Assembly: GCA_025454835.1 (NCBI GenBank)
Contig: JALONQ010000004.1
Location: 111,144-175,143 of the forward strand
DNA length: 64,000 nucleotides
Origin: Bacteroidota bacterium
Lineage (GTDB): Bacteria; Bacteroidota; Ignavibacteria; UBA10030
Direction of reading: 5' to 3'
Shown here: positions 4,838 to 28,625 of the stretch, piece by piece
Layout of the letters: each line of letters starts with the position of its first letter
Position numbering within the stretch: the stretch's first letter is position 1
Program-made: the position numbers and the translations under genes
The notes under the pieces: generated by a model
What the model was told of the DNA's origin: nothing
The model's input: only the letters and a program-made list of their open reading frames with translations
Databases searched by the model: none

Positions 4838-4950
4838 AAGATGGCACGCAGAGTCGCAGAGACCACAAAGGTTGCAGAGAAGAGAGAGTGCCAACCCTTC
4901 CATCTCCGCTAGCTTCGCGGCCTCTGCGTTTCTGCGTGAGACGCGTCTAT
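4838..4950. repeat. palindromic intergenic repeat element, CGCAGAG subfamily, in the maeB 5' leader
   Basis: The sequence is ggcacgcagagtcgcagagaccacaaaggttgcagagaagagagag...ccatctccgc...cctctgcgtttctgcgtgagacgcg. It has the same architecture as the copy at 19378-19492 (cacgcagcgacgcagagaccgcagcgatcgcagagaagagata...ccatctttcctctgcgtccactgcgtctctgcgag). Confidence 0.55.
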
Positions 4951-5188
4951 CTGGGCGACTATGGAACGTGCAATGTCCATGCCATTTTGACCCGCCGAAT
5001 CCTCTGGAATTCGACAGAATTGATGCCTGCGAACATGCACTTTCCGATAATCGCGAGTGCAGTTATGGGAGAGGAGAAAGGAGACTGAAGAAAGGTGAGA
5101 GGTGAAAGGCAATAGAACGAGGGAGATCGATTCCCAAGAATGATGCTCCTTCGCCGAGGGCGGGGGCAATGTGAGACTGAGCCTTGGA

Positions 5189-5713
5189 TCAGGCCGAGGT
5201 TGTCGCTTCAGGCTCGGCCTTCAACTTCCCGCCGCGCACGGTGGCTCCAACGACCAGACCGGCGCTGATGAGGACCAAGTTCTTGATGATATACTGCCCC
5301 TCCAGCGTCGGAGCATACGGGAGGCGCGTGAAAGCATCAGCCGGGAACAGGACGAGCGGGGTCAGCGTGCCCAGCATCTGCAGGAAGAGAAGGAACAGAA
5401 TAGCGCGTAGGTAGACGCCGAAGATCAATCCGATGCCGATGACCGTCTCCCACGTCGCCAGCAGGTAGATCGAGACGCCGGGTGTGACGATGTCGAACGT
5501 CAGGAGCCTGATCGTCTCCGTCGCCAGTCCTTGGGCAGGACTGAGTCCCGGAAAGAACTTCAGAAAGCCGAACCAGAAGAACGTGATGCCCAGGCTGATG
5601 CGGAGAAGCACGATGCCGTAGCGGGCCATCCATTCTGTAATGGCGCGGTCGAGGCGGTCGAAGGATCGGTGGTGGCTTGACATGGGCCCGATGGTCGTTT
5701 GGTGGGTTCTCAC
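5189..5713 (-). CDS. small integral membrane protein (DoxX/DUF417-like)
   Basis: Three to four hydrophobic helices are visible (GIVLLRISLGITFFWFGFLKFF; IYLLATWETVIGIGLIFG; LFLLFLQMLGTLTPLVLF; LVLISAGLVVGA). It sits directly downstream of the homocysteine methyltransferase gene with a 5-nt gap. Family assignment is tentative. Confidence 0.45.
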   Translation of the reverse strand: MRTHQTTIGPMSSHHRSFDRLDRAITEWMARYGIVLLRISLGITFFWFGFLKFFPGLSPAQGLATETIRLLTFDIVTPGVSIYLLATWETVIGIGLIFGVYLRAILFLLFLQMLGTLTPLVLFPADAFTRLPYAPTLEGQYIIKNLVLISAGLVVGATVRGGKLKAEPEATTSA

Positions 5714-5717
5714 ATCA

Positions 5718-6653
5718 TCATGGCTGCAACCGTGCTGCGGCCGCCGCGATATGCTCCGGTTCCGCCCCGCAACAGCCTCCCAGCAACTTCACCCCCATCC
5801 CATGCAACTCCGCCAGGAACGCCCCGAAGCTCTCGGGCGATTCCGGATACACGGGACCGTTCGCTCCACCTCGCGGAATGCCAGCGTTTGGCTGGATCAG
5901 GACAGGGACCGATGAAGCGGCCACGAATTCTTTCGCCACCTGCCGCATCGTATCGAACCCCGACCCGCAGTTCGACCCGACGATCTGTGCCCCGGCGGCG
6001 ACCAACTCTCTGGCCGCTTTGGTTGGCGAGACGCCGAACGCCGTGCGCGGACCGTGGGGGGTCGGTTCAAAGGTCATCGTCGCCCCGACGATGTCGAATC
6101 CGATCGCGTGCGCGCATTCGAGGGCCAGCTGAGCTTCTTCGAGCGACATCATCGTTTCGATGAGCAGCACGCGCACTCCGGCTTCGCGCATCGTGCGATA
6201 CGGCTCGGTGAATGCCGCACGCGCGTCTTCCGCAGAAAGCTCGCCGTACGGCTCGATGAGCTCGCCCAACGGTCCGGCGGAGCCGGCAATGATCGCACGG
6301 TGCCCCGCCGCTTCCGTCGCCAACCGGACCGCCGCTCGGATGTTGTCCGATATCTTCCCTTTCACCTCCGCCGACTGGAACCTGCGCACATTCGCGCCAA
6401 ACGTGTTGGTCTCGATCACCAAGGAGCCGGCGGCCACGAACTCACTGTGGAGGGTCCGCACGTCGTCCGGTCGGCTCACGTTCCACCCCTCGGGCGCCGA
6501 ACCTGGTTCGAGGCCCCGATGTTGCAGGCACGCACCGAAGCCGCCGTCGAACAGGACGGGGCGGGTGGGGGCGAGAAGTGACGCGGGGGAGAGCATCAGG
6601 GAGATTCGATTGTCGTTCGTGGAATGTGGGTTTTCGATTGCCGAAGAGATCAA
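5718..6653 (-). CDS. homocysteine S-methyltransferase (Hcy-binding) domain protein (MetH N-terminal module / BHMT / MmuM family)
   Basis: It contains the S-methyl_trans domain motifs (PVLFDGGFGACL...LVIETNTFGAN, GSNCGSG, LLGGCCGAEPEHIAAAA), with the Zn-binding Cys in GCCG. The ATG at 6653 overlaps the corrinoid-gene stop as ATGA. An alternative start at 6596 (MLSPASL) is possible. Confidence 0.8.
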   Translation of the reverse strand: MISSAIENPHSTNDNRISLMLSPASLLAPTRPVLFDGGFGACLQHRGLEPGSAPEGWNVSRPDDVRTLHSEFVAAGSLVIETNTFGANVRRFQSAEVKGKISDNIRAAVRLATEAAGHRAIIAGSAGPLGELIEPYGELSAEDARAAFTEPYRTMREAGVRVLLIETMMSLEEAQLALECAHAIGFDIVGATMTFEPTPHGPRTAFGVSPTKAARELVAAGAQIVGSNCGSGFDTMRQVAKEFVAASSVPVLIQPNAGIPRGGANGPVYPESPESFGAFLAELHGMGVKLLGGCCGAEPEHIAAAAARLQP

Positions 6654-7285
6654 GATGAGCGGCCGGCGAGGAGTCGTTCCACCAGTTCCACCGCTTCCGC
6701 TGCGGTTCGAGCGCTCCCGGCGGCGCCGATCTCGGAGGCGAATGACGCGCTGACGGGGGCGCCTCCGACGATGACCGGCACCCGTTCTTCGGCCGTTCTC
6801 AGCGCGTCGATGACCGTCTTCATGTAGGTCATCGTCGTCGTCAGCAGGGCCGACAGGCCCACGACATCCGGCCGATGCTCTCGCACCGCCTGAAGAAACC
6901 TCTCGGCGTTGCAGCCTGTGCCGATGTCGATGACCTTGAATCCCGCCCCTCGGAGCATCACGCCGACCAGGTTCTTGCCGATGTCATGGACGTCTCCTTT
7001 CACCGTCCCCAGGAGAACGCTCCCTTTGGGTACGTATGAGGTGGCGGCCAGCAGGGGATCGAGGACCGCCATGGCGGATTTCATGGCGCGCGCCGCTACG
7101 AGCACTTCGGGCAGATAGATCTCCCCCTCGCGAAACCGCTTGCCGACAGCCTGCATGGCAGGGAGCAACCCGAGGTCGAGGACCTGCGTCGGCTTGGCGC
7201 CCGCCTGGACGGCCTTCCCGGTCAGCTCGGCGGTCGCAACATGGTCGCCCCGGATGAGGGCTTGCTGAAGGTCAGTGAAGTCCAT
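6650..7285 (-). CDS. corrinoid (cobalamin)-binding protein, MtaC/MetH B12-binding module type
   Basis: A B12-binding_2 cap (MDFTDLQQALIRGDHVATAELTGKAV) is followed by a Rossmann-like domain with the D-x-H-x-x-G motif (GDVHDIGKN) and GGAPVS. The start is set at the internal ATG (7285). The upstream ORF extension is Arg/Pro-rich. Confidence 0.8.
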   Translation of the reverse strand: MDFTDLQQALIRGDHVATAELTGKAVQAGAKPTQVLDLGLLPAMQAVGKRFREGEIYLPEVLVAARAMKSAMAVLDPLLAATSYVPKGSVLLGTVKGDVHDIGKNLVGVMLRGAGFKVIDIGTGCNAERFLQAVREHRPDVVGLSALLTTTMTYMKTVIDALRTAEERVPVIVGGAPVSASFASEIGAAGSARTAAEAVELVERLLAGRSS

Positions 7286-7487
7286 TGACTCTCTTGAGAA
7301 AAGCGGTGCACGAACCTGCCCGCCCCCGAGATCTCCATGAGGCAGGCGGGGTTCCACAAAGGGACGACGAAGTTGCACGAAGGAGTTGAATGAGGGTCAC
7401 GACCATTCTCTTCGTGGACAAGATCCTCATCAGGATTTGATCGTCGCTTTGCGCCGTTGTGGAGGGGCCTCCGGCTGTGTTCCGCTT

Positions 7488-8600: not shown

Positions 8601-8644
8601 GGCGCTTCTGGCAAGGAATGGACACAAAAGGCACAAAAAACAGC

Positions 8645-8692
8645 AGAAGCACAAGAGCTTTGTGACCTCTGTGCTTCCTCGTGGCAAGGGTC
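8645..8692 (-). terminator. hairpin plus U-tract between DHOD-like and MtaA-like genes (terminator or attenuator)
   Basis: The minus strand reads gaagcacagaggtcacaaagctcttgtgcttc tgctgttttttgtg, an imperfect 11-bp stem followed by T6. This lies about 45 nt upstream of the MtaA-like start and about 150 nt past the DHOD-like stop. Confidence 0.4.
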
Positions 8693-8835
8693 CATCCGTG
8701 AACCTCGCGTCAGAAAACAACGATCCGGAAGTTCTTCCAGAGCATTCTCTGGAATTCCTTCCGGATCTCTTGCCGAACTCATACGCTCCCTGACCTCGTC
8801 ACTCCCCTTTCTGCTCCATTGACCTTCGCTCGGAA

Positions 8836-9834: not shown

Positions 9835-9954
9835 GGTATTCCTGTGTGGTCCTTGGTGCGTACTCTGTGGAGAGTATGCAGTAAGCAGGTACTCTCAGGC
9901 CTGTGCCATGTGGAAATCAGTGTTAACAGATCAGAGATCTTTGACACATGGTTT

Positions 9955-9999
9955 CAACCTGCCTATACCCTGCCCGAACCTGCCTACTGCCTACTTCTC
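9955..9999. repeat. short GTAGGCAG-type motif immediately 3' of the nifJ stop, shared with 57934-57980
   Basis: cctgcctataccctgcccgaacctgcctactgcctactt here matches cctgcccacaacctgatcgtacctgcctactgcctactt at 57.9 kb. The 20-nt core is 19/20 identical. Each copy sits 4-9 nt after the stop of a minus-strand gene. Confidence 0.5.
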
Positions 10000-10007
10000 A
10001 ATGTTAT

Positions 10008-17977: not shown

Positions 17978-19360
17978 CTACGAGGACGAGGTGATCTGCA
18001 GTTCTTCGATCTTGCGGTAGAGTGAGGACAGACTCATCCCGAGCGCCCGCGCCGTCTCATCTTTGTTCTGATGATGACGGCTCAGTGCCTGCTGGATGAA
18101 CATACGTTCGAAATCCTTGACAGCCTCTTTCAGCGGCTGGTCGCCGTACGCCACCGGGGCTGCCGGCGACGACCCGCTCCCTTCGGTCCACATCGACTCC
18201 GGCAGATGCTCCGGTCCGATGAACTCCGACTCACAGAAAATGGCCGCCCGTTCGACGGCATTCTGAAGCTCGCGCACCTCCCCCTTCCATTGATGACGAA
18301 GCAGCACGCGCATGGCGTCGTTCGTGAAGCCACGGATCGCCTTGCCGGCCTGCTTCGCGTACACCTCGAGAAAGAAGCTGGCCAGCAGCGGAATGTCGTC
18401 GGGCCGCGACGACAGGGGCGGGAGGTTCACTTCGACGACGTTGAGCCGGTAGAACAGGTCCTCGCGGAACTTGCCCGCCTCGACCTCCTTGCGCAGGTCC
18501 CGGTTCGTCGCCGCGATGATCCGCACATCCACTTTGATGAGATCCGTGGTGCCGACGGGCGTGATCTCCTTCTGTTCAAGGGCCCGGAGCAGCTTGACCT
18601 GCAGGTGGAGCGGGATCTCGCTGACCTCGTCGAGAAAGATCGTCCCTTCGTGCGCGACCTTCAGCATTCCTTCTTTGTCCGTCGTCGCGCCGGTGAACGA
18701 TCCTTTCTTGTGTCCGAACAACTCGCTTTCGAACAGCGTATCGACGATCGCGCCGCAATTGACCGGCACGAACCGCTTCGATGCACGGGCGCTGTTGAAA
18801 TGGATCGCCCGCGCGACGAGCTCCTTGCCGGTGCCGCTCTTGCCGGTGATGAGCACCGTGCCCTCGCTGCGCGCCACCTTTTCGATGACGCCGAAGACCT
18901 TCTTCATGGCCGAGCTCTGGCCGATGATCTGGTCGAAGTCGTACGTCCGCTGCAGCTCCTGGCGGAGGATCGCGTTCTCGAGGGCGAGCGCCCGGTAGTC
19001 CAGCAGCTTGCGGATACGGAGCAGCAGGTCGTCGAAGTTGATCGGCTTCAGGACGTAGTCCGACGCTCCCTGGCGCAGTGACGTGATGGCCGTCTCGACC
19101 GACCCGAAGGCCGTGATAATGACGACGAACGTCTCGGGCGATTCCTGGCGGATGGACCGGAGCAACTCCGTCCCCCGCATCTCGGGCATCTCGATGTCGG
19201 TAATGACGATGTCAAACGGTCGATCGCGATGCAGCTCGAGCGCGATGCGGCCGTTCGCCGCTTCGGCAACGACGAACCCTTCTTTCTGCAGGACGAAGGA
19301 CACCGATTCCCGGATGATCTGTTCGTCGTCGACGATGAGGATGCGTTGGGACATGGTCAC
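17978..19360 (-). CDS. sigma-54-dependent Fis-family response regulator (NtrC-like)
   Basis: It has a receiver (ILIVDDEQIIRE...DIVITDIEMPEMRG), a sigma-54 AAA+ domain (VLITGKSGTGKELVARAIH...ESELFGHKKGSFTGA) and a C-terminal Fis HTH. Confidence 0.9.
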   Translation of the reverse strand: MTMSQRILIVDDEQIIRESVSFVLQKEGFVVAEAANGRIALELHRDRPFDIVITDIEMPEMRGTELLRSIRQESPETFVVIITAFGSVETAITSLRQGASDYVLKPINFDDLLLRIRKLLDYRALALENAILRQELQRTYDFDQIIGQSSAMKKVFGVIEKVARSEGTVLITGKSGTGKELVARAIHFNSARASKRFVPVNCGAIVDTLFESELFGHKKGSFTGATTDKEGMLKVAHEGTIFLDEVSEIPLHLQVKLLRALEQKEITPVGTTDLIKVDVRIIAATNRDLRKEVEAGKFREDLFYRLNVVEVNLPPLSSRPDDIPLLASFFLEVYAKQAGKAIRGFTNDAMRVLLRHQWKGEVRELQNAVERAAIFCESEFIGPEHLPESMWTEGSGSSPAAPVAYGDQPLKEAVKDFERMFIQQALSRHHQNKDETARALGMSLSSLYRKIEELQITSSS

Positions 19361-19377: not shown

Positions 19378-19492
19378 CGAGAAAGAAGCGTTACACGCAG
19401 CGACGCAGAGACCGCAGCGATCGCAGAGAAGAGATATGGGGGAGACCGTCCTTTCCATCTTTCCTCTGCGTCCACTGCGTCTCTGCGAGATT
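19378..19492. repeat. palindromic intergenic repeat element, CGCAGAG subfamily, in the NtrC-regulator 5' leader
   Basis: It is gaagcgttacacgcagcgacgcagagaccgcagcgatcgcagag ... ctctgcgtccactgcgtctctgcgag. The left arm is the reverse complement of the right arm. It shares the GAAGCGTTACAC head with the CACAGAG-subfamily copies at 25783 and 28527. Confidence 0.6.
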
Positions 19493-19508
19493 GCTTCTGG
19501 CATCATCG

Positions 19509-20948
19509 TCAGGTGTTTCGCGGGAGGCGGATGGTGAACAGGCTCCCCTCGCCGGGAATGCTTTCGACGAGAATGTCGCCGTTGAACGACTTCACGATGC
19601 CGTAACTGACCCACAAGCCGAGTCCGGTACCGCGACCCACTCCCTTGGTCGTGTAGAAAGGCTCGAAGATCTTGTCGACCTCGCCGGACGGAATGCCCTT
19701 GCCCGTGTCGCTGACGGCGATGTCGATGACGCTCTCGGCGCTCCGGCTCGACACGGTGATCGTGCCCGGCCTCCCCTCGAGCGCATCGACGGCGTTCATC
19801 AGGACGTTGATGAAGACCTGGACGATCTGGTCGGGGACGATACGGATGGCCGGCAGCTGGCCGTCGAGGTCGAGCGAAAAGGTGACGTCCTTCACCTTCT
19901 TCCCGTACTTGACGATGTTGAGCGCGTCGTTGAGGATCTGGTTGAGGTCCGTCGGCTTTGAGACGTGCGTGCTCGGACGCGAGAAGTCGACCAGATCCCG
20001 GATGATCTTGGCGATCCGATTGATCTGGCTGTTGATCAGCCCGAGCTTCTCGGTCGCGAACGGGTCCTGCACCGTGCGTTGGAGGACCTGCACAAGGGAC
20101 GAAATGGCCGTCAAGGGATTGCCCACTTCGTGCGCGATGCCGGCAGCGAGCGTACCGATGCTTTCCATCCGTTGCGACCGTACGAGCTGCTGCTCGAGGA
20201 TGATCTGCTCGGTGATGTCGCGGTGCGCGCCGAGGAAACCGACGACCTTGCCCCCCGCATCCATGATCGGCGAGATCACCAACTCGGTGTGGAACGGGGC
20301 TCCATCTTTCCGCCGATTCTCAACCCGGCCGGTCCAGAGCTTGCCACTGTTGATGTGCTTCCATACGCCTCCCCAGAATTCACGGGCGTGCTTGCCGCTC
20401 GAGAGCATTCGGGGGTTCTGTCCGAGAAGCTCCTCGCGCGTGTAGCCGCTGGCACGTTCGAACGCCGGGTTCACATACACCATCCGACCTGACGCGTCGG
20501 TGATCTGGATGGGGTTGATCGTGTGCTGGATGACGTTCGAGAACCGGAGCAGGTCCAGTTCCTTCTGCTTGTCGAGCGTGATGTCACGCCCGATGAGGAC
20601 CCGCACCTCACCCTTCGGTCCATGAAGCGGCTTGATCTCATACCGCATGTCGAGCACACCGCCATCGCTTCGGACGACCCTGACCTCCTCCGACGGTACG
20701 ACCTGCGCCATCGAGAGGGACCGAAGAACCTCGTCCGGCTGGCCCGGTGCTACCAACCGGTCGATCGTCGCGAGTTTGTCGCCGCGCCGGAGACCGAACA
20801 TTTCCCCGGCCTGGCGATTCCAGTCGATGATACGCCCGTTCTTCTCAAGGATGAGAATGATCTCGGGCATCAGGTCCATTACACGACCGTATGTGCTCAG
20901 ATATGCCGGCATCGTTATCAAGATACCGAAACATCGTCGCACGGGCAA
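19509..20948 (-). CDS. PAS-domain sensor histidine kinase
   Basis: Two PAS/PAC segments are followed by the H-box (AAGIAHEVGNPLTAISS) and a HATPase_c domain (N, G1, G2 motifs: NVLMNAVDA...DTGKGIP...GTGLGL). Confidence 0.85.
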   Translation of the reverse strand: MPVRRCFGILITMPAYLSTYGRVMDLMPEIILILEKNGRIIDWNRQAGEMFGLRRGDKLATIDRLVAPGQPDEVLRSLSMAQVVPSEEVRVVRSDGGVLDMRYEIKPLHGPKGEVRVLIGRDITLDKQKELDLLRFSNVIQHTINPIQITDASGRMVYVNPAFERASGYTREELLGQNPRMLSSGKHAREFWGGVWKHINSGKLWTGRVENRRKDGAPFHTELVISPIMDAGGKVVGFLGAHRDITEQIILEQQLVRSQRMESIGTLAAGIAHEVGNPLTAISSLVQVLQRTVQDPFATEKLGLINSQINRIAKIIRDLVDFSRPSTHVSKPTDLNQILNDALNIVKYGKKVKDVTFSLDLDGQLPAIRIVPDQIVQVFINVLMNAVDALEGRPGTITVSSRSAESVIDIAVSDTGKGIPSGEVDKIFEPFYTTKGVGRGTGLGLWVSYGIVKSFNGDILVESIPGEGSLFTIRLPRNT

Positions 20949-22055: not shown

Positions 22056-22310
22056 GCGGACCTCCTGATGATGGGAATTGGATGACGGCGCGGTGGGGGA
22101 ACGCCATGGTCGCTTCGGCTGACTTCGGCGGACCGGCCATGGGGGCAGCTGATCGAACGTTCCTCGACGGCACAGGATGGTAGACGAAGGCGCTGGGCCG
22201 GGGGTTCCACGCCGCCGGATGCCTTGAGTCTTCCTCGATTTTTGACGTAGTTTCAGCGGGGTTCCGGGCGAGCCCCGATTCGTTCGCTTCATCGATCGAC
22301 CCCCGTCCCC

Positions 22311-23489
22311 ATGGACGACTCCTCCTCCCTCTTCCCTCACGACCTGCCGGACCAGTTCGGCGCGCGCTTCGGACGTCCGCCCGAAGTGATCGCATCGGCC
22401 CCGGGACGCGTGAACCTCATCGGCGAGCACACCGACTACAATGAGGGTTTCGTGTTGCCCGTTGCCATCGACCGCCGCACCTGGGTGGCCATGGCCGCTC
22501 GGGAGGACGGCCGTCTCCATTTTCGATCAGAGACGACGAACGAGGATGTCGAGATCGGGCTCCAGGATGCTGACCATCATCGCCGCAAAGGGTGGTCGTC
22601 TTATCCTGCCGGGATCGTCGCGCTCCTTCGCCAGCAGGGCGTGCCGGTCGGAGGCATGGACGTGCTCATCTCGAGCACCGTCCCGCTCGGCACCGGGCTC
22701 AGTTCGTCGGCGGCCTTGGAGGTCTCGATGGCAACTGGGACGCTTGCGCTCGCCGGGAGTTCCCTGCCGTCGCAGGAACTCGTCCGCCTCTGCCAGCGGG
22801 CAGAGTGGGACTGGGCCGGCGTGCAGTGCGGCATCATGGACCAAACGATCGCCGTCTCGGGAAAATCGCGCGCGGCGCTCTTGATCGATTGCCGCACACT
22901 CGACACCGAGACCGTGCCGCTCGATCCAAGCCTTCAGCTTGTCGTCTGCGACACGGGCATGCCCCGGACGCTGGCGACGTCCGAGTACAACAAACGCCGG
23001 GGTGAATGCGACCAAGCCGTGCGCGAGCTCGGGCGCCATGCAGCCGGGCTGACGTCGCTCCGGGACGTGACGCAGGAGCAGCTCTCGTTATTCGGCCGTC
23101 ACCTCTCCGAGACCCCCCTTCGCCGCGCACGACACGTGGTCACGGAGAACGAGCGTGTCCTGCAAGCCGTCGACGCGCTCTGGCTGCGTGATCACCGTTC
23201 GCTCGGAAAGCTGCTGGGGGCTTCGCATGCCAGTCTGAGAGATGACTACCAGGTGAGCTGCGCTGAACTCGACGTCATGGTCGCCATCTGCCAATCGGTG
23301 CCGGGCGTGTGTGGCGCCCGCATGACCGGAGCCGGGTTCGGCGGTTGCGCGTTGGCTCTCGCCACGCCCGGTGCGGTCGGCGCATTGACAGAGGCCGTCA
23401 TGAGCCGGTATCCGCAACACACCGGCCGCACACCGTCGGTCGTCACCTGCACGGTGGGCGACGGGACCCGTGCGGTACGCGTCGGATGA
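22311..23489 (+). CDS. galK: galactokinase
   Basis: The galactokinase signature GRVNLIGEHTDYNEG and the GHMP kinase ATP motif (PLGTGLSSSAALEV) are present. Confidence 0.9.
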   Translation: MDDSSSLFPHDLPDQFGARFGRPPEVIASAPGRVNLIGEHTDYNEGFVLPVAIDRRTWVAMAAREDGRLHFRSETTNEDVEIGLQDADHHRRKGWSSYPAGIVALLRQQGVPVGGMDVLISSTVPLGTGLSSSAALEVSMATGTLALAGSSLPSQELVRLCQRAEWDWAGVQCGIMDQTIAVSGKSRAALLIDCRTLDTETVPLDPSLQLVVCDTGMPRTLATSEYNKRRGECDQAVRELGRHAAGLTSLRDVTQEQLSLFGRHLSETPLRRARHVVTENERVLQAVDALWLRDHRSLGKLLGASHASLRDDYQVSCAELDVMVAICQSVPGVCGARMTGAGFGGCALALATPGAVGALTEAVMSRYPQHTGRTPSVVTCTVGDGTRAVRVG

Positions 23490-23514
23490 CGGCCCCGAAC
23501 TTACTTTTCTCGCA

Positions 23515-25779
23515 ATGAAGTTCCTCGCCCATCTCATCATCGGCACGCTTGCCGCCGCTGCTGCCGCGGCTCAGCCCGTGACGCTCCGGCTGGTGAACTG
23601 GGCCACGCCGGAGGAGATGGATCTGGACCGGAAGGCCATTGTGCTTTTCGAGGAACGCCATTCTGGCATTCGGGTCCTTTACGAACCGAACCCCGGACGG
23701 CAATACGAAGAGAAGATCCTCACCGCGCTGGCCGCCGGAGCGCCTCCCGACGTCTTTCTGCTCGATTCGAAGCTCATCCCAACCTTCACGAACAAAAGGG
23801 TCCTGCTCGACCTGACGCCGTACATCGGTCCACTCGGCATCGACACGACGCAGTGGTTTCCGAATGTCCTCGCGATCGGCCGACGCAACGGCGGGCTCTA
23901 CGCGTTTCCGAAGGGTTTCACGCCGCTCATGATGTTCTACAACCGCGCGCTCTTCCGGGAAGCGGGGATCGCGGAGCCGACACCATCGTGGACATGGGGA
24001 GATCATCGCCGGATCGCCGCGTCGCTCACCCGTGATCGCGACGGCGACGGAACGCCCGACCAATACGGCACGTCGTTCACGAACTACTACTACTTCTGGA
24101 TCGTCTGGGTCTGGAGCGCGGGGGGCGATGTTGTGACCGAGGACGGACTGCGTGCGACCGGTGCGCTGACGTCGGCGGCGACGGAGGAGGCGATCACATT
24201 CCTTACGGACCAGCGGACGCGCGACCGGGTGGCGCCCGACGTCGGCAGTTGGGTGCAGTCGGAGCGGACCGGCACGAATGCACAGCTCTTCGCCAACGGC
24301 CGTGTGGCGATGAGTCTGGATGGTCATTGGCGGTTGCCGACCTACGCGCGATATGTGCGCGAGGGGAAGCTCGACCTGGGCGTTGCACCGTTGCCGCTGC
24401 ATCCGAGCGGCCGGAAGGTGAACGTCATGTACCAGAGCGGATGGTGCGTACCTGTCGGCGCGTCGCATCCGCGTGAGGCGGCGATGCTTGCGGCGTTCAT
24501 GGCCGGGCCGGAGGCGGCGCGGATCCGCTCGTCACAGCATCTGGAGATCCCGGCCGTGCGGTCCGTTGCGGAGGAGATCGTCGCAATCGACCCATACGGC
24601 TGGGAGCGCCCGTTCGTGGAGGAAGTGCCGTTCTGCCGTCAGCCATGGGGTTCGGTCATCGAGCGGTTCAGCGAGATCGAGTGGACGCTGCAGGACGCGG
24701 TCGACGACGTCGTCTTGAACGGCGTGCCGGTCAACCAAGCGCTCGCGAAGGCGGCGCTCAAAGTGGACCGGCAGTTGGAGGAGATCAGGTCGCACGCGGC
24801 GTTCACGTTTGCGCCCATCGAAGAGCATTCGGAGATCTTACAGACGCTGGCGGCCGTGGCGGCGGCGGTGGCGGGGGCAATGTTCCTTCTCTATAGAAGA
24901 GCGCGGCGCAGGGACCGGCCGGCGGCCTTGCGGTCCATCGGATTTCTGGCGCCTTCGCTCATTCATCTGACCGTCTTCCTCGCCACGCCGATGGTCTTCT
25001 CGGCGTATCTCAGCCTCCACCGCTGGGACCTCGTCGTACCCGACACGCCGTTCGTCGGGCTCGAGAACTTCGTCGTGATGTTCGGCGACGAGAGCTTCTG
25101 GAATGCTCTGCGGAACACGCTTCTGTTCTCTCTGAACGTTCCATTCGGTCTGGCGTTGGCCCTGGGCGTCGCTTTGTTGTTGCATCGGCGCTTCACCGGC
25201 GTGGCGGTCCTCCGGACCATCTACTTCCTTCCGAGCGTCACGTCGTTCGTGGCCATTGCCCTCGTGTGGATGTGGATCTACCATCCGACCTTTGGCGCGG
25301 CCAACTATCTCCTGTCGCTCCTCGGCCTGCCGCCGATTCCCTGGCTCAACTCCACGCAGACGGCGATGCTGAGCGTCGTCATCTTTACGATCTGGCTGGG
25401 GATGGGCTACCAGATGGTGGTCTTCCTGGCGGGACTGCAGGGCATTCCCGAGGAGTACTACGAAGCGGCCCGCATGGACGGAGCCACGGCGTGGCAGCGG
25501 TTCCGGCGCGTGACGTTTCCGTTGCTGATGCCGACGACGTTCTTCCTGCTCATCACCTCGCTCATCTCGTCGTTCCAGGCCTTCACGTCGATCTACGTCA
25601 TGACGGCCGGCGGGCCCGTGGGAAGCACCGACGTGATCGTCTACCATATCTACCAAGCGGCGTGGGAGCAACTGCGGATGGGGTACGCGTCGGCGATGGC
25701 GTGGGTGTTGTTCGTGCTGATCCTGGCGGCGACCTGGGTGCAGTTCCGGTTGGTGGGGAGGGGTGTGGAGTACTCTTAG
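23515..25779 (+). CDS. carbohydrate ABC transporter substrate-binding protein fused to permease (MalE/UgpB-like + MalF/UgpA-like)
   Basis: The N-terminal ~430 aa is a periplasmic sugar-binding domain with a signal peptide (MKFLAHLIIGTLAAAAAAAQ). The C-terminal ~300 aa is a six-TM permease with the EAA loop (EAARMDGATAWQRFRRVTFPLL). The whole is one continuous frame. The ORF-track start at 23470 uses GTG; 23515 is the ATG. Confidence 0.8.
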   Translation: MKFLAHLIIGTLAAAAAAAQPVTLRLVNWATPEEMDLDRKAIVLFEERHSGIRVLYEPNPGRQYEEKILTALAAGAPPDVFLLDSKLIPTFTNKRVLLDLTPYIGPLGIDTTQWFPNVLAIGRRNGGLYAFPKGFTPLMMFYNRALFREAGIAEPTPSWTWGDHRRIAASLTRDRDGDGTPDQYGTSFTNYYYFWIVWVWSAGGDVVTEDGLRATGALTSAATEEAITFLTDQRTRDRVAPDVGSWVQSERTGTNAQLFANGRVAMSLDGHWRLPTYARYVREGKLDLGVAPLPLHPSGRKVNVMYQSGWCVPVGASHPREAAMLAAFMAGPEAARIRSSQHLEIPAVRSVAEEIVAIDPYGWERPFVEEVPFCRQPWGSVIERFSEIEWTLQDAVDDVVLNGVPVNQALAKAALKVDRQLEEIRSHAAFTFAPIEEHSEILQTLAAVAAAVAGAMFLLYRRARRRDRPAALRSIGFLAPSLIHLTVFLATPMVFSAYLSLHRWDLVVPDTPFVGLENFVVMFGDESFWNALRNTLLFSLNVPFGLALALGVALLLHRRFTGVAVLRTIYFLPSVTSFVAIALVWMWIYHPTFGAANYLLSLLGLPPIPWLNSTQTAMLSVVIFTIWLGMGYQMVVFLAGLQGIPEEYYEAARMDGATAWQRFRRVTFPLLMPTTFFLLITSLISSFQAFTSIYVMTAGGPVGSTDVIVYHIYQAAWEQLRMGYASAMAWVLFVLILAATWVQFRLVGRGVEYS

Positions 25780-25782
25780 CGG

Positions 25783-25850
25783 GAGAAGCGTTACACAGAG
25801 ATCCACCGAGCTTTCACAGAGGTCTACAGAGCGCGTGACGATGTGAAGTG
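25783..25850. repeat. palindromic repeat element, CACAGAG subfamily (partial copy)
   Basis: gaagcgttacacagagatccaccgagctttcacagaggtctacagagcgcgtgacg. Confidence 0.5.
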
Positions 25851-25907
25851 GGACTTTGTCTGAACTTTGGTACTTTGTAAGCAGTCACTTTTTCAAGTAG
25901 GGGGGAT

Positions 25908-26288
25908 ATGACAACGCAACGAGATCCGCTGACCCATTCGATTATTGGTTGCGCAATCGAGGTGCATCGCGTGCTCGGACCTGGCCTGTTGGAATCGGCA
26001 TACGAAGCGTGCCTGATTCATGAGCTCACTCGGCAAGGCCTACCAGTTGACCGTCAGGTATCGGTGCCAGTTGAATTCAAGGGCATGGTGCTCGACTGCG
26101 GCTAGCGCTTGGACGTGCTTGTGGATGACTCCGTCATCATCGAGATCAAAGCGATCGATTTACTGCTTCCAGTGCACACGGCCCAACTGCTCACATATAT
26201 GCGCTTCGCCAAAAAGCGCGTCGGACTCCTGCTCAATTTCAACGCACCGTCCCTCCGCCAAGGGCTCAAAAGGTTCGTCATGTAACTC
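25908..26288 (+). pseudogene. GxxExxY-family (PD-(D/E)xK-like) gene interrupted by an in-frame TAG at 26103-26105
   Basis: The ORF reads MTTQRDPLTHSIIGCAIEVHRVLGPGLLESAYEACLIHELTRQGLPVDRQVSVPVEFKGMVLDCG*. The same frame then continues as [46 protein letters not shown].... The TAG sits where the family has a conserved Tyr (..DCGYRLDLLV..), consistent with TAY to TAG. TAG is used as a real stop elsewhere, for example at the end of the SBP-permease gene. Confidence 0.6.
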
Positions 26289-26335
26289 TGTGGGTCTCTG
26301 TGCCCGCTCTGTGGAACTCTGTGCCACGCTTCTCA
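26283..26335. repeat. palindromic repeat element, CACAGAG subfamily (right-arm copy) in the pfk leader
   Basis: ctctgtgggtctctgtgcccgctctgtggaactctgtgccacgcttctc, ending in the CGCTTC terminal inverted-repeat half. Confidence 0.55.
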
Positions 26336-26357
26336 TTCGTCGACCTGGAGAACCTAC

Positions 26358-27461
26358 GTGTCCACCATCAAGAAGATCGCCATCAGTACCGGTGGCGGTG
26401 ATGCACCGGGCTTGAACGCTGTCATCCGTGCGGCCGTTATTGCCGCCATCAATCGGGGATGGGAGGTCGTCGGGATCCGCGACGGTTACAACGGCATCCT
26501 TTTGCCCAAGCAGTATCCGCAGGGCGGGGTCTTTGCGCTCACGCGACGCGAGGTCAGGGGTATCACGCATCTGGGCGGCACCATCCTCGGCACGACAAAC
26601 AAGGGCAATCCGATGAACTATCCCGTCCAGCAGCCGGACGGGACCTTCAAAGAGACGGACCGGACCGGCGAGTTGGTCGACGGCATGAGAAAGCAGGGCA
26701 TCGACGCGCTCATCAGCATCGGCGGCGACGGCTCGCTGACGATCGCGAACGCCATCGCCCAGAAGGGCATGAAGGTCGTCGGGGTCCCCAAAACGATCGA
26801 CAACGATCTGGACCGTACCGTCATGACCTTCGGCTTCGACACAGCCGTGTCGTTCGCCACGGAATGCATCGACCGGCTGCACTCGACGGCCGAATCGCAT
26901 CGGCGCGTCATGGTGGTGGAAGTGATGGGACGGTATGCCGGGTGGATCGCCCTGAACTCCGGCATCTCGGGAACGGCCGACGCCATTCTGATCCCGGAGA
27001 TCCCGTATGACATCGAAAAGGTGGCCGACAAGATCCGGGCGCGGGAAAAGGGGGGATCTCACTTCTCCATTGTCGTTGTGGCCGAGGGGGCCATGGCCAA
27101 AGGTGGTTCTCGGGCGGTCATCGGCAACGAGGTCGGCCGTCTGGAACGCCTCGGCGGGGCCGGTGAACGGGTGGCCAAAGAACTGCAGGCGGCCACCGGC
27201 AAGGAGAGTCGGTGCGTCGTGCTGGGCCATCTCCTCCGCGGCGGGTCGCCGACGACCTTCGACCGGCTGATCTCGCTCCGGTTCGGCGCGGCCGCCGTGC
27301 GAGCGCTGGATGAAGGCCAGTCGGGCGTGATGGTGGCACTCGACCCTCCGGCCGTTCGGTATGTGCCGTTGTCCGAGGCCACGCATCGCATGAAAGTGGT
27401 CCCGCTGGATTGCGATACCATCTTGACCGGGAGAGATCTCGGGGTGTGCTTCGGGGATTGA
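26358..27461 (+). CDS. pfkA: 6-phosphofructokinase
   Basis: PFK family motifs are present (GGDAPGLNAVIRA; ISIGGDGSL; PKTIDNDL; MGRYAGWIAL). Confidence 0.9.
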   Translation: MSTIKKIAISTGGGDAPGLNAVIRAAVIAAINRGWEVVGIRDGYNGILLPKQYPQGGVFALTRREVRGITHLGGTILGTTNKGNPMNYPVQQPDGTFKETDRTGELVDGMRKQGIDALISIGGDGSLTIANAIAQKGMKVVGVPKTIDNDLDRTVMTFGFDTAVSFATECIDRLHSTAESHRRVMVVEVMGRYAGWIALNSGISGTADAILIPEIPYDIEKVADKIRAREKGGSHFSIVVVAEGAMAKGGSRAVIGNEVGRLERLGGAGERVAKELQAATGKESRCVVLGHLLRGGSPTTFDRLISLRFGAAAVRALDEGQSGVMVALDPPAVRYVPLSEATHRMKVVPLDCDTILTGRDLGVCFGD

Positions 27462-27700
27462 AAGAAGCGGGACACAGAGATCCACAGAGGAAAAGAGGAG
27501 TTCCGCCGAGAACATGTACCGTTTTTCTCTGTGGGTCTCTGTGCTACTCTGTGTAGCTCTGTGACATGTTTCTCTTCGCTGTGATCAGACGAAGCGGGAC
27601 ACAGAGTTCCACAGAGGAAAAGAGAAGTTCCACGAAGGAAGATATGAATCGCTCTGTGGATCTCTGTGCGGTCTCTGTGGGTCTCTGTGTCATGTTCCTA
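27461..27700. repeat. two tandem full-length palindromic repeat elements, CACAGAG subfamily
   Basis: Copy 1 is gaagcgggacacagagatccacagaggaaaagaggagttccgccgagaac...ctctgtgggtctctgtgctactctgtgtagctctgtgacatgtttctcttcgc. Copy 2 is gaagcgggacacagagttccacagaggaaaagagaagttccacgaaggaag...ctctgtggatctctgtgcggtctctgtgggtctctgtgtcatg. CACAGAGTTCCACAGAG is the reverse complement of CTCTGTGGAACTCTGTG. Confidence 0.7.
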
Positions 27701-27708
27701 ACTGGGGC

Positions 27709-28524
27709 TTGATCTTGCTGCTCCGCACTTCCAAATTCCTCCTCCTCACCGGCCTCGGCCTGACCATGCTCCTTCCGTTTGTCTGGATGCTCAGCACGGC
27801 GCTGATGACCGATGCGGAGGTGTACCAGTTCCCGCCGCGGTTTCTGCCGGCCGAATGGCGCTGGTCCAACTTCGCCGAAGCGCTGACGATGCAGCCGTTC
27901 GGCCGGTTCTTCCTGAACTCTCTCGTTGTTTCGTTGGCCGCCACGGCAGGCCAGGTGCTCTTTTGTTCGATGGCGGCCTACGCGTTCGGTCGTCTGCGCT
28001 TTCCGTGGCGCGACCGGGTCTTTGCAATCTACCTGTCGACCATGATGGTCCCGGCGATCGTAACGATCATTCCGGCCTTCCTGATCATCAGTTCCTTCGG
28101 CTGGATGAACAGCTACCAGGCCCTCTTCAGCCCTTTGCTCTCATCGGTCTGGGGGATCTTCTTGCTCCGGCAGTTCTTCCTGACGATCCCGCGAGACCTC
28201 GAAGATGCGGCGCGCATGGATGGGGCCGGAGATCTGGCGGTGTTTTTCCGCGTGATCGTGCCCCTTTCCAGGCCGGCGCTGGCGACGCTGGCGATCTTTG
28301 CCTTCATGGGGTCGTGGAAGGACTTCCTCTGGCCGCTGCTTGTGACGAATCGGATCGACATGCGCACGGTGGAGGTCGGGATCGCCGGGTTCAACTCGAT
28401 GTACGCCACCGATTGGCCGCACCAGATGGCGGCAGCCGTCGTGGTGCTGATCCCCGTGGTGACCGTATTCTTGCTCGCGCAGAAGCATTTCGTGCGGGGG
28501 ATCACGATGACGGGACTCAAATAG
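27709..28524 (+). CDS. carbohydrate ABC transporter permease (MalG/UgpE-like)
   Basis: It has six TM helices and the EAA motif (DLEDAARMDGAGDLAVFFRVIVPL). Confidence 0.85.
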   Translation: MILLLRTSKFLLLTGLGLTMLLPFVWMLSTALMTDAEVYQFPPRFLPAEWRWSNFAEALTMQPFGRFFLNSLVVSLAATAGQVLFCSMAAYAFGRLRFPWRDRVFAIYLSTMMVPAIVTIIPAFLIISSFGWMNSYQALFSPLLSSVWGIFLLRQFFLTIPRDLEDAARMDGAGDLAVFFRVIVPLSRPALATLAIFAFMGSWKDFLWPLLVTNRIDMRTVEVGIAGFNSMYATDWPHQMAAAVVVLIPVVTVFLLAQKHFVRGITMTGLK

Positions 28525-28526
28525 TG

Positions 28527-28625
28527 AAGCGTTACACAGAGGAAAAGAGAAGTTCCACGAAGGAATATGTCTATTCCACTCTGTGGGTCTCTGTGACATC
28601 TCTGTGGAACTCTGTGTCACGTTTT
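28527..28625. repeat. palindromic repeat element, CACAGAG subfamily
   Basis: gaagcgttacacagaggaaaagagaagttccacgaaggaatatg...ctctgtgggtctctgtgacatctctgtggaactctgtgtcacg. Confidence 0.65.

What the first reader, a model, noticed from the sequence alone, without database searches (positions are those of the whole stretch)
4838..28625. Novel ~100-bp palindromic repeat family (two subfamilies) placed in 5' leaders of at least seven genes
At least eight copies of an imperfect-palindrome element occur in this window.
- Subfamily 1: GAAGCG(TTA/GGA)CACAGAG(A/T)TCCACAGAGGAAAAGAG(A/G)AGTTCC... CTCTGTGG(G/A)TCTCTGTG...CGCTTC. The left arm CACAGAGTTCCACAGAG is the exact reverse complement of the right arm CTCTGTGGAACTCTGTG. 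Copies are at 25783, 26283, 27461, 27591 and 28527.
- Subfamily 2 has G for A (CGCAGAG/CTCTGCG). Copies are at 4838 and 19378. The 19378 copy shares the GAAGCGTTACAC head with subfamily 1. A partial copy is near 9860.

Every copy ends 20-60 nt upstream of a start codon (maeB, the NtrC regulator, the DHOD-like gene, pfk, the malG-like permease, the GDE glycosidase, the GxxExxY gene). This placement suggests either strong insertion-site preference for leaders (MITE-like) or a shared cis-regulatory or RNA-structure function. The copies flanking pfk on both sides bracket a gene that interrupts a malF/malG-type permease pair.
Basis: seen in the sequence. Interest (0 to 1): 0.65.

Follow-up and report, generated by a model that had tools for sequence, protein, structure and literature searches.

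The report
Decaying nuclease-gene cassettes with heptamer-repeat arms
The "palindromic repeats" are one dying copy and several gene-less remnants of a widespread selfish cassette: a small nuclease gene (GxxExxY family, function unknown) held between two inverted arrays of a 7-base unit and lodged between the genes of ordinary operons in many bacterial phyla.

Summary
The repeat is real: 13 arm matches against 0.1 expected.

- **One element, not two.** The "copies" at 25783 and 26283 are the two arms of a single 548-bp element. Its loop holds a GxxExxY / PD-(D/E)XK nuclease gene that carries a premature TAG.
- **Gene-less hairpins.** The other copies are about 100-nt hairpins without a gene. 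I found two more, at 50963 and 60276.
- **Widespread.** Three-unit arrays of the CACAGAG unit occur in at least 120 stretches from genomes of many phyla.
- **Tied to the nuclease gene.** In 80 unrelated metagenome loci chosen only by the protein, 56 of 78 testable GxxExxY genes have such inverted arrays on both sides. None of 56 neighbouring host genes does.
- **Gain and decay.** Relatives of the source organism show the same spacer empty, with an intact gene, with the pseudogene, or with arms only.
- **What is constrained.** The 7-nt units are conserved; the spacers between them are not. There is no strand bias and no target-site duplication.

Best reading: a selfish cassette, similar to a 23S rRNA intervening sequence, that rides on host operon transcripts. 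Its arms are probably recognition sites for its own nuclease, but that step is inferred. I found no prior description in the searchable literature.

The parts
25785..25831 (+). Left arm of the ORF-carrying cassette: GAAGCGTTA, then units CACAGAG, CACCGAG, CACAGAG, TACAGAG
   Evidence: Sequence. It pairs with 26286-26332 (IR score z = 15.7) and in the minimum-free-energy and centroid folds of the whole 561-nt RNA.
25908..26286 (+). GxxExxY / PDDEXK_3 nuclease gene, a pseudogene with an in-frame TAG at 26103-26105 (codon 66)
   Evidence: Translation. With the stop read as Y: TIGR04256 E = 2e-43, 147 bits against a cutoff of 35; PF13366 E = 3.7e-42. The stop is also present in the public contig, where the gene is called as two fragments. 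The orthologue in L121 is intact and has TTT at that codon.
26286..26332 (+). Right arm of the cassette: four CTCTGTG units, then CCACGCTTC
27464..27572 (.). ORF-less hairpin A, first of a tandem pair between pfk and the malG-like gene; 2 CACAGAG and 4 CTCTGTG units
   Evidence: Fold: -47.6 kcal/mol, z = -3.7. Relatives L121 and L285 have only one hairpin in this spacer; L286 has none.
27591..27699 (.). ORF-less hairpin B, second of the tandem pair
   Evidence: 95% identical to hairpin A over the first 41 nt (family D6). Fold: -47.6 kcal/mol, z = -3.65.
28526..28627 (.). ORF-less hairpin C between the malG-like gene and the GH116/GDE-type glycosidase. It shares its loop (GGAAAAGAGAAGTTCCACGAAGGAA) with hairpin B.
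   Evidence: Family D10, 72% over 88 nt. Fold: -37.0 kcal/mol, z = -3.1. It is specific to this lineage: L121 and L285 have unrelated sequence in this spacer.
4845..4938 (.). ORF-less hairpin with CGCAGAG units, 23 nt upstream of maeB (minus strand)
   Evidence: Fold of the minus strand: -59.6 kcal/mol, z = -6.8; plus strand: -45.4 kcal/mol.
19385..19498 (.). ORF-less hairpin with CGCAGAG/CGCAGCG units. It fills the spacer between a PAS histidine-kinase gene (stop at 19509) and the NtrC-type regulator gene (start at 19354), both on the minus strand.
   Evidence: Folds: -55.6 and -54.7 kcal/mol.
50963..51045 (.). ORF-less hairpin with CGCAAAG units in the convergent spacer between the GH31 gene and a TPR gene.
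   Evidence: Family D12; sequence. Fold of the minus strand: -33.0 kcal/mol, z = -2.8.
60276..60378 (.). ORF-less hairpin with CACGAAG units.
   Evidence: Folds: -40.0 kcal/mol (z = -2.7) and -37.9 kcal/mol.

Best explanation
**What it is (shown).** The repeats belong to a very widespread family of compact cassettes, about 430-720 bp long. Each cassette has three parts:
- a left arm of about three 7-nt units (consensus CRCNRAG, e.g. CACAGAG, CACGAAG, CGCAGAG), separated by 2-4 variable bases;
- a 125-codon gene for a minimal PD-(D/E)XK nuclease of the GxxExxY family;
- a right arm that is the inverted copy of the left.

The cassette sits between genes and is nearly always co-directional with the gene upstream. 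It starts a median of 8 nt after that gene's stop codon. The window holds one such cassette with a nonsense mutation, plus at least seven gene-less hairpins of four unit types.

**Gain and loss (shown).** Cassettes are gained and lost between relatives. They decay in place by pseudogenisation and internal deletion into arms-only hairpins. Arms-only hairpins can themselves duplicate locally.

**How it works (inferred).**
- The cassette is selfish. It has no promoter of its own and is transcribed as a passenger of the host operon.
- The nuclease recognises the repeated 7-nt units in the arms. That would explain why the units are conserved while the spacers drift, and why one unit type is used throughout an element.
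- The nuclease uses the units to promote copying or movement of the cassette at the DNA level, by a route that leaves no target-site duplication.
- Pairing of the two arms, in the transcript or in single-stranded DNA, loops the insert out and can hide the nuclease gene's ribosome-binding site. This would keep the insertion nearly harmless.
For: **Spread of the arms**
My own calculation, assuming uniform base composition, expects about 0.5 chance hits.
- Most hits are hairpins of 3-5 plus 3-5 units.
- Only 5 of 83 fall inside crude ORF calls.

**Link to the gene**
- Seven GxxExxY genes lie between or beside the arms in those loci.
- Of 80 metagenome loci chosen only by protein similarity, 56 of 78 testable genes have a flanking inverted repeat with z >= 6. 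Host genes: 0 of 56. Fisher p = 6e-20.
- The upstream neighbour is co-directional in 53 cases and divergent in 6.
- The cassettes are compact.
- They lie inside housekeeping operons: fabD-X-fabG, radA-X, exbB-X-exbD. An empty fabD-fabG site exists in another Sphingomonas species.

**Life cycle at one orthologous spacer**
- L286: empty, 24 nt.
- L121: intact gene.
- Window: gene with TAG.
- L285: arms plus leader only.
- A hairpin loop in L021 retains the first ~25 codons of the gene, E = 6e-6.

**Constraint on the units**
- Units are 95% complementary between arms; spacers are 54%.
- One unit type is used per element, and the type is unrelated to G+C content.
- Protein similarity tracks unit type: the nearest neighbour has the same unit in 24 of 42 cases against 25% expected, permutation p < 0.0005.
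- The CACGAAG elements form one protein clade found on contigs of 42-65% G+C.

**The protein as a nuclease**
- D69, E79 and K81 are invariant in 30 homologues.

**No separate expression signals**
- No promoter-like site was found in 25600-28800, and none of the 6 terminator-like sites there coincides with an arm stem.
- The arms pair across the ORF in the fold of the whole cassette.
Against: - No experiment or direct computation shows that the protein binds or cuts the arms.
- The correlation between protein and unit type could reflect shared ancestry of whole cassettes rather than co-adaptation.
- How a 125-residue nuclease alone could move DNA to new sites is unknown.
- I found no pair of near-identical ORF-carrying copies at different loci of one genome. 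The closest case, L021 and L072 from the same MAG, is about 78-91% identical.
- 22 of 78 GxxExxY genes lack a significant split inverted repeat. More distant family members (37-42% identity) have other flanks or direct repeats.
- Both arm polarities exist, which a simple binding-site model does not predict.
- The spread of arms-only copies (the window copy at 28526) needs a mechanism that may not involve the protein at all.
Confidence: 0.55

Rival explanations
1. This is the same selfish cassette, but the arms work only at the RNA level, as in 23S rRNA intervening sequences. They form a stem that loops the insert out of the polycistronic transcript and is cut by RNase III (or another host RNase). 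This insulates the host operon and limits translation of the nuclease. The nuclease spreads the cassette as a free-standing homing endonuclease, by cutting empty sites rather than the arms.
For: - Strong long-range stem across the ORF.
- The cassettes are co-directional with host genes and have no promoter.
- Insertions are tolerated in essential operons.
- The neighbouring four-helix-bundle cassette at 31206-31688 has flanks that pair only as sense RNA: -30.0 kcal/mol, z = -3.2, against -14.9, z = +0.4 for the antisense.
- In the window, the sense strand folds better by 3.6-14 kcal/mol in 4 of 6 hairpins.
- The Coxiella intervening sequence is an ORF-bearing stem cut by RNase III and has tandem heptamers upstream of its ORF (PMC4990558).
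Against: - Across 46 hairpins between co-directional genes there is no sense-strand advantage: 24 against 21, p = 0.64.
- Mismatches compatible with sense G-U pairs are not enriched: 66 against 76.
- The spacers between units are barely complementary (54%), so the stem is a chain of 7-bp helices broken by internal loops.
- Pure structural selection does not explain why all units of one element have the same sequence.
Confidence: 0.25
2. The hairpins are cis-regulatory or mRNA-stabilising elements that benefit the host and are selected in the leaders or spacers of these genes. The GxxExxY association would then be incidental.
For: - The hairpins are stable and lie in spacers between genes.
- The hairpin between pfk and the malG-like gene is conserved in three related lineages.
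- REP elements in the E. coli malE-malF spacer are a textbook precedent for hairpins that stabilise upstream mRNA (my own knowledge).
Against: - Presence or absence differs between close relatives within the same operon.
- The same element family lies in functionally unrelated operons and in convergent spacers.
- 56 of 78 randomly sampled GxxExxY genes carry the arms, against 0 of 56 host genes.
- The gene-less form is seen to derive from the coding form by deletion.
- No Rfam family matches.
Confidence: 0.1
3. The repeats are REP/REPIN-type elements mobilised in trans by a REP-associated tyrosine transposase (RAYT), or MITEs of a conventional transposon.
For: - They are dispersed imperfect palindromes in intergenic DNA, many of them gene-less.
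- In L044 the arms flank a Y1-family transposase gene.
Against: - The L044 gene is an IS200 equivalog (131 bits against a cutoff of 55), not a RAYT (21.8 against a cutoff of 80). It has its own end hairpins, so it is an insertion sequence that landed in a hairpin loop.
- It is the only such case among the 120 genome-scan loci, and the window has no Y1 gene.
- There is no target-site duplication.
- The unit architecture and the conservation across phyla are unlike species-specific REPs.
Confidence: 0.05

Closest known systems
23S rRNA intervening sequences (IVS), especially the ORF-bearing ones of Coxiella and Leptospira (S23p / four-helix-bundle protein, PF05635)
   Same: - A small ORF (about 120-125 codons) of unknown function, enclosed by terminal inverted repeats that form a long stem.
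- Carried passively inside a host transcript.
- Exists in ORF-bearing and ORF-less hairpin forms, and the ORF decays.
- Regarded as selfish and possibly a transposition relic.
- The Coxiella IVS has tandem heptamers upstream of its ORF (PMC4990558).
- In this window, two genes of that very protein family sit as similar inserts in the same operon.
   Different: - The host context is the spacers between genes in mRNA operons, not 23S rRNA helices.
- The cargo is a PD-(D/E)XK nuclease, not a four-helix-bundle protein.
- The arms are arrays of a conserved 7-nt unit with unconstrained spacers, not a near-perfect 28-bp stem.
- RNase III cleavage was not shown here.
REP / BIME / REPIN elements with RAYT transposases
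   Same: - Abundant intergenic imperfect palindromes, often inside operons.
- The coding partner is flanked by the repeats in inverted orientation.
- Non-coding copies outnumber the coding ones.
   Different: - The partner is a PD-(D/E)XK nuclease, not an HUH Y1 transposase.
- The arms are multi-unit arrays.
- The same unit is shared across phyla, whereas REPs are specific to a species.
Transcribed MITE-like repeats (Neisseria Correia/NEMIS, enterobacterial ERIC/IRU)
   Same: Intergenic elements of about 100-150 bp with terminal inverted repeats. They are co-transcribed with neighbouring genes and fold into hairpins that host RNases can process (my own knowledge).
   Different: - Those have target duplications and no known coding partner of this type.
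- They are restricted to a genus or family.
- Here there is no target-site duplication, and an ORF-carrying parent form is directly seen.
Free-standing homing endonuclease genes (for example the seg and mob genes of T4-like phages)
   Same: A small nuclease gene inserted between conserved genes, present or absent among relatives and prone to decay. The comparison with phage genes rests on my own knowledge.
   Different: - Known free-standing homing genes are mostly GIY-YIG or HNH and are not bounded by inverted repeat arrays.
- Cleavage of empty sites was not tested here.

Membership tests
GxxExxY protein (NCBIfam TIGR04256) / PDDEXK_3 (Pfam PF13366): the ORF at 25908-26286 | Profile score above the curated cutoff | tested here: met
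   TIGR04256: 147.4 bits against 35. PF13366: 143.8 bits against 22. The internal stop was read as Y.
GxxExxY protein (NCBIfam TIGR04256) / PDDEXK_3 (Pfam PF13366): the ORF at 25908-26286 | PD-(D/E)XK fold with the catalytic D...E-x-K motif | tested here: met
GxxExxY protein (NCBIfam TIGR04256) / PDDEXK_3 (Pfam PF13366): the ORF at 25908-26286 | Intact reading frame, i.e. a functional member | tested here: not met
   TAG at 26103-26105. The same stop is in the public contig. The orthologue in L121 is intact.
23S rRNA intervening sequence (IVS) | Inserted in a 23S rRNA helix | tested here: not met
   No rRNA in the window or in 32 related loci. The elements lie between protein-coding genes.
23S rRNA intervening sequence (IVS) | Complementary termini that form a stem enclosing the insert or ORF | tested here: met
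   The arms pair in the minimum-free-energy and centroid folds of the 561-nt cassette. IR z = 15.7.
23S rRNA intervening sequence (IVS) | Excision by RNase III | not testable with these tools
   Needs RNA end mapping or an in-vitro assay.
23S rRNA intervening sequence (IVS) | ORF of the S23p / 23S_rRNA_IVP family (for ORF-bearing IVSs) | tested here: not met
   The cargo of the CACAGAG cassette is PF13366. PF05635 genes occur in separate neighbouring inserts at 31287 and 34061.
REP/REPIN-RAYT system | An associated REP-type tyrosine transposase flanked by the repeats | tested here: not met
   No Y1 gene in the window. The single Y1 gene found between arms (L044) is an IS200 equivalog; its RAYT score is 21.8 against a cutoff of 80.
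MITE (miniature inverted-repeat transposable element) | Terminal inverted repeats on a short non-coding element | tested here: met
MITE (miniature inverted-repeat transposable element) | Target-site duplication | tested here: not met
   No direct repeat outside the arms in 56 cassettes.
MITE (miniature inverted-repeat transposable element) | Derived from an autonomous element that encodes a transposase | tested here: inconclusive
   Derivation from a coding parent by internal deletion is shown. The parent, however, encodes a nuclease with no demonstrated transposase activity.
Integron gene cassette / attC | An array next to an intI integrase gene, with a single attC palindrome 3' of each ORF | tested here: not met
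   The arms lie on both sides of the ORF. Insertions are single, inside housekeeping operons, with no integrase among the neighbours examined.
Free-standing homing endonuclease gene | A nuclease gene between conserved genes, polymorphic among relatives | tested here: met
Free-standing homing endonuclease gene | The nuclease cleaves the cassette-free allele | not testable with these tools
   Needs biochemistry or genetic crosses.

The most novel reading that the evidence does not exclude
GxxExxY proteins (about 35,000 clusters at 50% identity, function unknown) are the nucleases of a previously unrecognised, cross-phylum class of mobile elements.
- These are compact cassettes bounded by inverted arrays of a 7-nt unit that the nuclease reads.
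- They colonise the spacers between genes in operons and decay into the gene-less hairpins scattered through many genomes.
- The four-helix-bundle (S23p/IVP) cassettes with tandem-heptamer arms, including the classical 23S rRNA intervening sequences, would be a sister class built on the same plan.

If so, long-puzzling rRNA intervening sequences, many "orphan" intergenic palindromes and perhaps heptamer tandem repeats would share one origin.
Probability: 0.35. Interest if true: 0.85.

Novelty: new variant of a known kind. Interest (0 to 1): 0.72.

Why it matters
- **A context for a large unknown family.** GxxExxY / PF13366 has about 35,000 clusters at 50% identity and is still listed as "function unknown". 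This work gives it a concrete genomic context and a testable substrate: its own flanking 7-nt unit arrays.
- **An origin for orphan palindromes.** It explains many unexplained intergenic palindromes in diverse phyla as decay products of one kind of cassette.
- **A possible explanation for rRNA intervening sequences.** It ties these cassettes to the ORF-bearing intervening sequences of 23S rRNA, whose origin has been open since about 1990.
- **Tolerated insertions in essential operons.** It shows that essential operons such as fab and exbBD tolerate 450-bp selfish inserts placed just after a stop codon. How polarity is avoided becomes a directly testable question.
- **Practical annotation issues.** The arms cause mis-called N-terminal extensions of these genes and may be mistaken for regulatory RNAs.

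Tried and rejected
- **Rfam.** Nothing but a tRNA in the window at gathering thresholds. Only sub-threshold miRNA-precursor noise on the hairpins at E <= 10. Nothing relevant in 32 related loci.
- **Hairpins inside rRNA operons.** I checked loci with long ORF-free flanks. No rRNA was found.
- **RAYT/REP idea.** The one Y1 transposase between arms (L044) is an IS200 with its own end hairpins, inserted in a hairpin loop.
- **Target-site duplication.** None was seen at 56 cassette boundaries.
- **Tests for selection on the RNA sense strand.** Wobble-type mismatches: 66 against 76. Sense against antisense folding energy: 24 against 21, p = 0.64. Both negative.
- **Viral contigs.** 41 stretches contain the three-unit pattern. 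Nearly all are one-armed direct arrays, probably unrelated tandem repeats, and none has a GxxExxY gene. There were no PHROG matches, and only weak Cas4 similarity in PADLOC. There is no evidence that phages carry the cassette.
- **Terminators and promoters.** No promoter-like site in 25600-28800, and none of the 6 terminator-like sites coincides with an arm stem.
- **Solved structures by sequence.** No PDB relative.
- **Literature.**
  - "GxxExxY" occurs in 3 papers, none of the titles or abstracts listed concerning this.
  - PF13366 is listed as "Unknown ... multiple transfers" in PMC3424549.
  - The "class 4" multicopy sites of Geobacter metallireducens, said to resemble repeats in many genomes, are a different family, CCCTC...GGGAGAGGG.
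  - Searches on MITEs, hairpins, nucleases, STRR repeats and selfish operon elements found no description.
- **Specificity residues.** Columns 4 and 9 of the protein alignment separate CACGAAG-type from RGAG-type elements. But the CACGAAG set is one clade, so this cannot be told apart from shared ancestry.

Full report

Yes. The 17-nt arm CACAGAGTTCCACAGAG (up to 3 mismatches) occurs 13 times, all between 25794 and 28616. Shuffles gave a mean of 0.10. Repeat finding recovers the same families and the CGCAGAG variants at about 4845 and 19394. Reading the sequence shows what the unit of repetition really is: a 7-nt word (CACAGAG on one arm, CTCTGTG on the other). It is repeated 2-4 times with 3-4 variable bases between copies. 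With the generalised word C[AG]CN[AG]AG, the window has 7 arrays of at least 3 units; shuffles give 0.1.

**2. Anatomy in the window**

  - Between the arms lies an ORF (25908-26286) that is a clear GxxExxY / PDDEXK_3 protein: TIGR04256 E = 2e-43, PF13366 E = 4e-42.
  - It has an in-frame TAG at 26103-26105.
  - The stop is also in the public contig. The window is part of JGI 3300037408 Ga0392393_0000017, where the gene is called as two fragments.
  - Folding the whole 561-nt stretch pairs the left arm with the right arm across the ORF, in both the minimum-free-energy and the centroid structures.
- *The gene-less hairpins.* The other copies are hairpins of about 100 nt:
  - two in tandem between pfk and the malG-like permease gene (27464-27572, 27591-27699);
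  - one between that gene and a GH116/GDE-type glycosidase gene (28526-28627);
  - CGCAGAG-type hairpins before maeB (4845-4938) and between a PAS histidine-kinase gene and its NtrC-type regulator gene (19385-19498);
- *The rejected copy.* The "partial copy near 9860" has only one exact CTCTGTG, beside a degenerate CTTGGTG. I do not count it.
- *Position.* Four of the five elements flanked by co-directional genes start 3-14 nt after the upstream stop codon and end 14-30 nt before the next start. They fill spacers between genes within operons rather than marking 5' leaders. The copy at 4845 is the exception: it lies about 250 nt from the upstream gene.

**3. The family outside the window**

My own calculation, for uniform base composition, expects about 0.5 chance hits in 596 Gb.
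- The hosts span Bacteroidota, Chloroflexota, Acidobacteriota, Pseudomonadota, Planctomycetota, Armatimonadota, Kiritimatiellota, Bdellovibrionota and even a Methanosarcinales MAG.
- Most hits are hairpins of 3-5 CACAGAG units facing 3-5 CTCTGTG units.
- Both polarities exist: CACAGAG...CTCTGTG in most phyla, and CTCTGTG...CACAGAG mainly in Bacteroidota.
- Only 5 of 83 hairpins fall inside crude ORF calls. 47 of the 62 with a defined context lie between co-directional genes.
- Copies within one genome share arms and partly loops, with sharp outer boundaries.
- No Rfam family covers them.

**4. The link with GxxExxY genes**

- In the genome-scan loci, seven GxxExxY genes lie between or next to the arms.
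- For an unbiased test I fetched 80 metagenome loci selected only by similarity to the protein.
  - 56 of the 78 with enough flank have a significant inverted repeat split across the gene (z >= 6). None of 56 neighbouring host genes does. Fisher p = 6e-20.
  - The arms are again arrays of about three units. The counts are CACAGAG 106, CACGAAG 71, CACGGAG 50, CGCAGAG 19 and CGCCGAG 17, among others.
  - Each element uses essentially one unit type, and the type is not explained by G+C content.
  - The outer ends often read TTCACC...GGTGAA, and there is no target-site duplication.
- The cassette is very compact: 431-716 bp in all.
  - The left arm starts a median of 8 nt after the upstream stop.
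  - The right arm starts a few nt after the nuclease stop.
- The upstream neighbour is co-directional in 53 cases and divergent in 6.
- On annotated replicons the gene sits inside housekeeping operons:
  - radA-X in Bacteroides finegoldii;
  - ade-X in Bernardetia;
  - fabD-X-fabG-acpP-fabF in Sphingomonas parapaucimobilis, with CGCGAAG arms;
  - exbB-X-exbD in a metagenomic lineage.
- Sphingomonas paeninsulae has the fabD-fabG spacer empty (33 nt). The cassette in S. parapaucimobilis lies between the fabD stop and the fabG ribosome-binding site.
- The family is large: 34,986 clusters at 50% identity with E <= 1e-3.

**5. Gain, decay and spread, seen directly**

Relatives of the source organism carry the same operon: galK, SBP-malF fusion, pfk, malG-like gene, glycosidases. 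The spacer between the malF-like gene and pfk shows four states:

| Locus | malG-like protein identity to the window | State of the spacer |
|---|---|---|
| L286 | 78% | 24 nt, empty |
| L121 | 89% | Intact GxxExxY gene; arms partly changed in a compensating way (CACTGAG / CTCAGTG) |
| Window | n/a | The pseudogene |
| L285 | 87% | Arms plus part of the leader; the ORF is deleted |

Other observations point the same way:
- The spacer between pfk and the malG-like gene has no hairpin in L286, one in L121 and L285, and two in the window.
- The spacer between the malG-like gene and the glycosidase gene has a CACAGAG hairpin only in the window. Its loop matches that of the neighbouring hairpin B, so arms-only copies also duplicate locally.
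- In another phylum, a hairpin loop in L021 still encodes the first ~25 residues of a GxxExxY protein, E = 6e-6.
- pfk lies between the permease genes in L286 as well, so the repeats did not put it there.

**6. What is under constraint**

- Between the two arms, unit positions are 95% complementary, but the spacers between units are only 54%. The "stem" is therefore a chain of 7-bp helices separated by largely unpaired spacers.
- Transition mismatches that would be G-U pairs in the sense RNA are no commoner than the opposite kind: 66 against 76.
- Across 46 hairpins between co-directional genes, the sense strand does not fold better than the antisense: 24 against 21, p = 0.64.
- Protein similarity tracks unit type. 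The nearest neighbour shares the unit in 24 of 42 cases against 25% expected, permutation p < 0.0005.
- The CACGAAG elements form one protein clade spread over contigs of 42-65% G+C, which suggests transfer of whole cassettes between hosts. It also means that co-adaptation cannot be separated from shared ancestry.

**7. Most likely mechanism**

*Shown:*
- the cassette architecture;
- its placement between genes, co-directional with the host genes;
- gain and loss between relatives;
- decay into arms-only hairpins;
- sequence-level conservation of the units.

*Inferred:*
- The cassette is a selfish passenger of host operons. It has no promoter, and none of the terminator-like sites coincides with an arm stem.
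- Its nuclease reads the repeated units and uses them for copying or movement at the DNA level. I favour DNA-level recognition because the constraint is on unit sequence rather than on pairing, and is symmetric between strands.
- Arm pairing loops out the insert and can mask the nuclease gene's ribosome-binding site, which often lies in the last unit or spacer.

*The main rival* keeps the cassette but makes the arms purely an RNA insulator, like an intervening sequence cut by RNase III.
- It is supported by analogy (PMC4990558).
- It is also supported by the neighbouring four-helix-bundle cassette, whose flanks pair only as sense RNA.

*Less likely readings:*
- Host-beneficial regulatory hairpins are disfavoured by the polymorphism among relatives and the variety of operons.
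- REP/RAYT elements are excluded because the only Y1 gene seen between arms is an IS200 inserted in a hairpin loop.
- Conventional MITEs are disfavoured because there is no target-site duplication and no transposase.

**8. Comparison with known systems**

- *Closest analogue.* The ORF-bearing 23S rRNA intervening sequence. It is a selfish insert with a small ORF of unknown function, enclosed by terminal inverted repeats and carried in a host transcript. The ORF decays, and in Coxiella tandem heptamers lie upstream of it.
- *Not a member of that family.* The elements here lie between protein-coding genes, carry a different protein, and have unit-array arms.
- *A shared plan?*
  - The same window operon holds two inserts that encode the IVS-type protein (31287-31661 and 34061-34438). 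One of these sites is an 18-nt empty spacer in L285.
  - In another lineage, an IVS-protein cassette with (AATGTCC)n / (GGACATT)n arms is cleanly present in L230 and absent in L231, between exbD and the next gene.
  - Only six such genes could be examined.

**9. Novelty and limits**

- The searchable literature has no description of this association. That library lacks most subscription journals, and database family comments were not available, so a prior note cannot be excluded.
- Gene calls in related loci were crude (longest ORFs).
- No near-identical coding copies at separate loci of one genome were found, so active transposition, as opposed to horizontal gain and vertical decay, is not demonstrated.

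Noticed in passing
window 31206-31688 and 33972-34477: Two paralogous genes of the 23S_rRNA_IVP / four-helix-bundle family (PF05635, TIGR02436) sit as about 480-bp inserts between glycosidase genes of the same operon. They are preceded by a repeated motif (AAGTRGTAGATACAGA). Relative L285 has an 18-nt spacer at the first site. The flanks of the first insert pair only as sense RNA (-30.0 kcal/mol, z = -3.2, against -14.9 for the antisense).
   Followed up: partly
L230:2368-2860 compared with L231:2079-2081: Clean presence/absence of an IVP-family cassette between exbD and the next gene, in two metagenomic strains that share an identical GxxExxY protein. Its arms are tandem heptamers, (AATGTCC)n and (GGACATT)n.
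   Followed up: yes
window 55748-55842; 41885-41931 and 58938-58984; 9942-9996 and 57923-57977: Other short-unit arrays in spacers: (CAGTGAA)n, GATTGAC arrays in inverted orientation 17 kb apart, and CCTGCCTAC repeats. They may be arms or relics of other cassette classes. Similar CGAAAT/GATTG arrays occupy the spacer between the malG-like gene and the glycosidase gene in L121 and L285.
   Followed up: no
L044:582-1332: An IS200-family insertion sequence (NF033573, 131 bits), with its own end hairpins, sits in the loop of a CACAGAG hairpin in an Abditibacterium MAG.
   Followed up: yes
L220:1420-1940: Here the GxxExxY gene is flanked by two complete small hairpins, one on each side, instead of one split pair of arms. 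This is a variant architecture.
   Followed up: no
proteins P0241-P0254: The best-scoring members of the GxxExxY profile in the 1.84-billion-protein library are two-domain proteins of 240-295 residues, i.e. tandem fusions of two GxxExxY modules.
   Followed up: no
window 23470-25779: A single 769-residue ORF fuses a periplasmic solute-binding domain (SBP_bac_1) to a MalF-type permease domain. The fusion is conserved in relatives L121, L285 and L286.
   Followed up: no
window 47917-50745: The GH31 glycosidase ends in a Por_Secre_tail (type IX secretion sorting) domain. Together with the best homologues from Ignavibacteria and Bacteroidota MAGs, this suggests the source is an FCB-group bacterium.
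   Followed up: no
window 54124-54309 and 45928-46407: A CTG/TTG-rich 12-15-nt periodic repeat lies inside a long minus-strand ORF. A 48-nt periodic repeat (6 or more copies) lies inside another. Both are probably repeat-containing proteins.
   Followed up: no
L139:1400-1950 and L138:1380-1915: Distant GxxExxY genes (37% identity) on Fusobacteria and Treponema plasmids lack unit arrays. One is flanked by a 22-nt direct repeat (CAGATTTAATCCGTGTACCTAT), the other by a 13-nt inverted repeat (ACACGGATTCG).
   Followed up: partly
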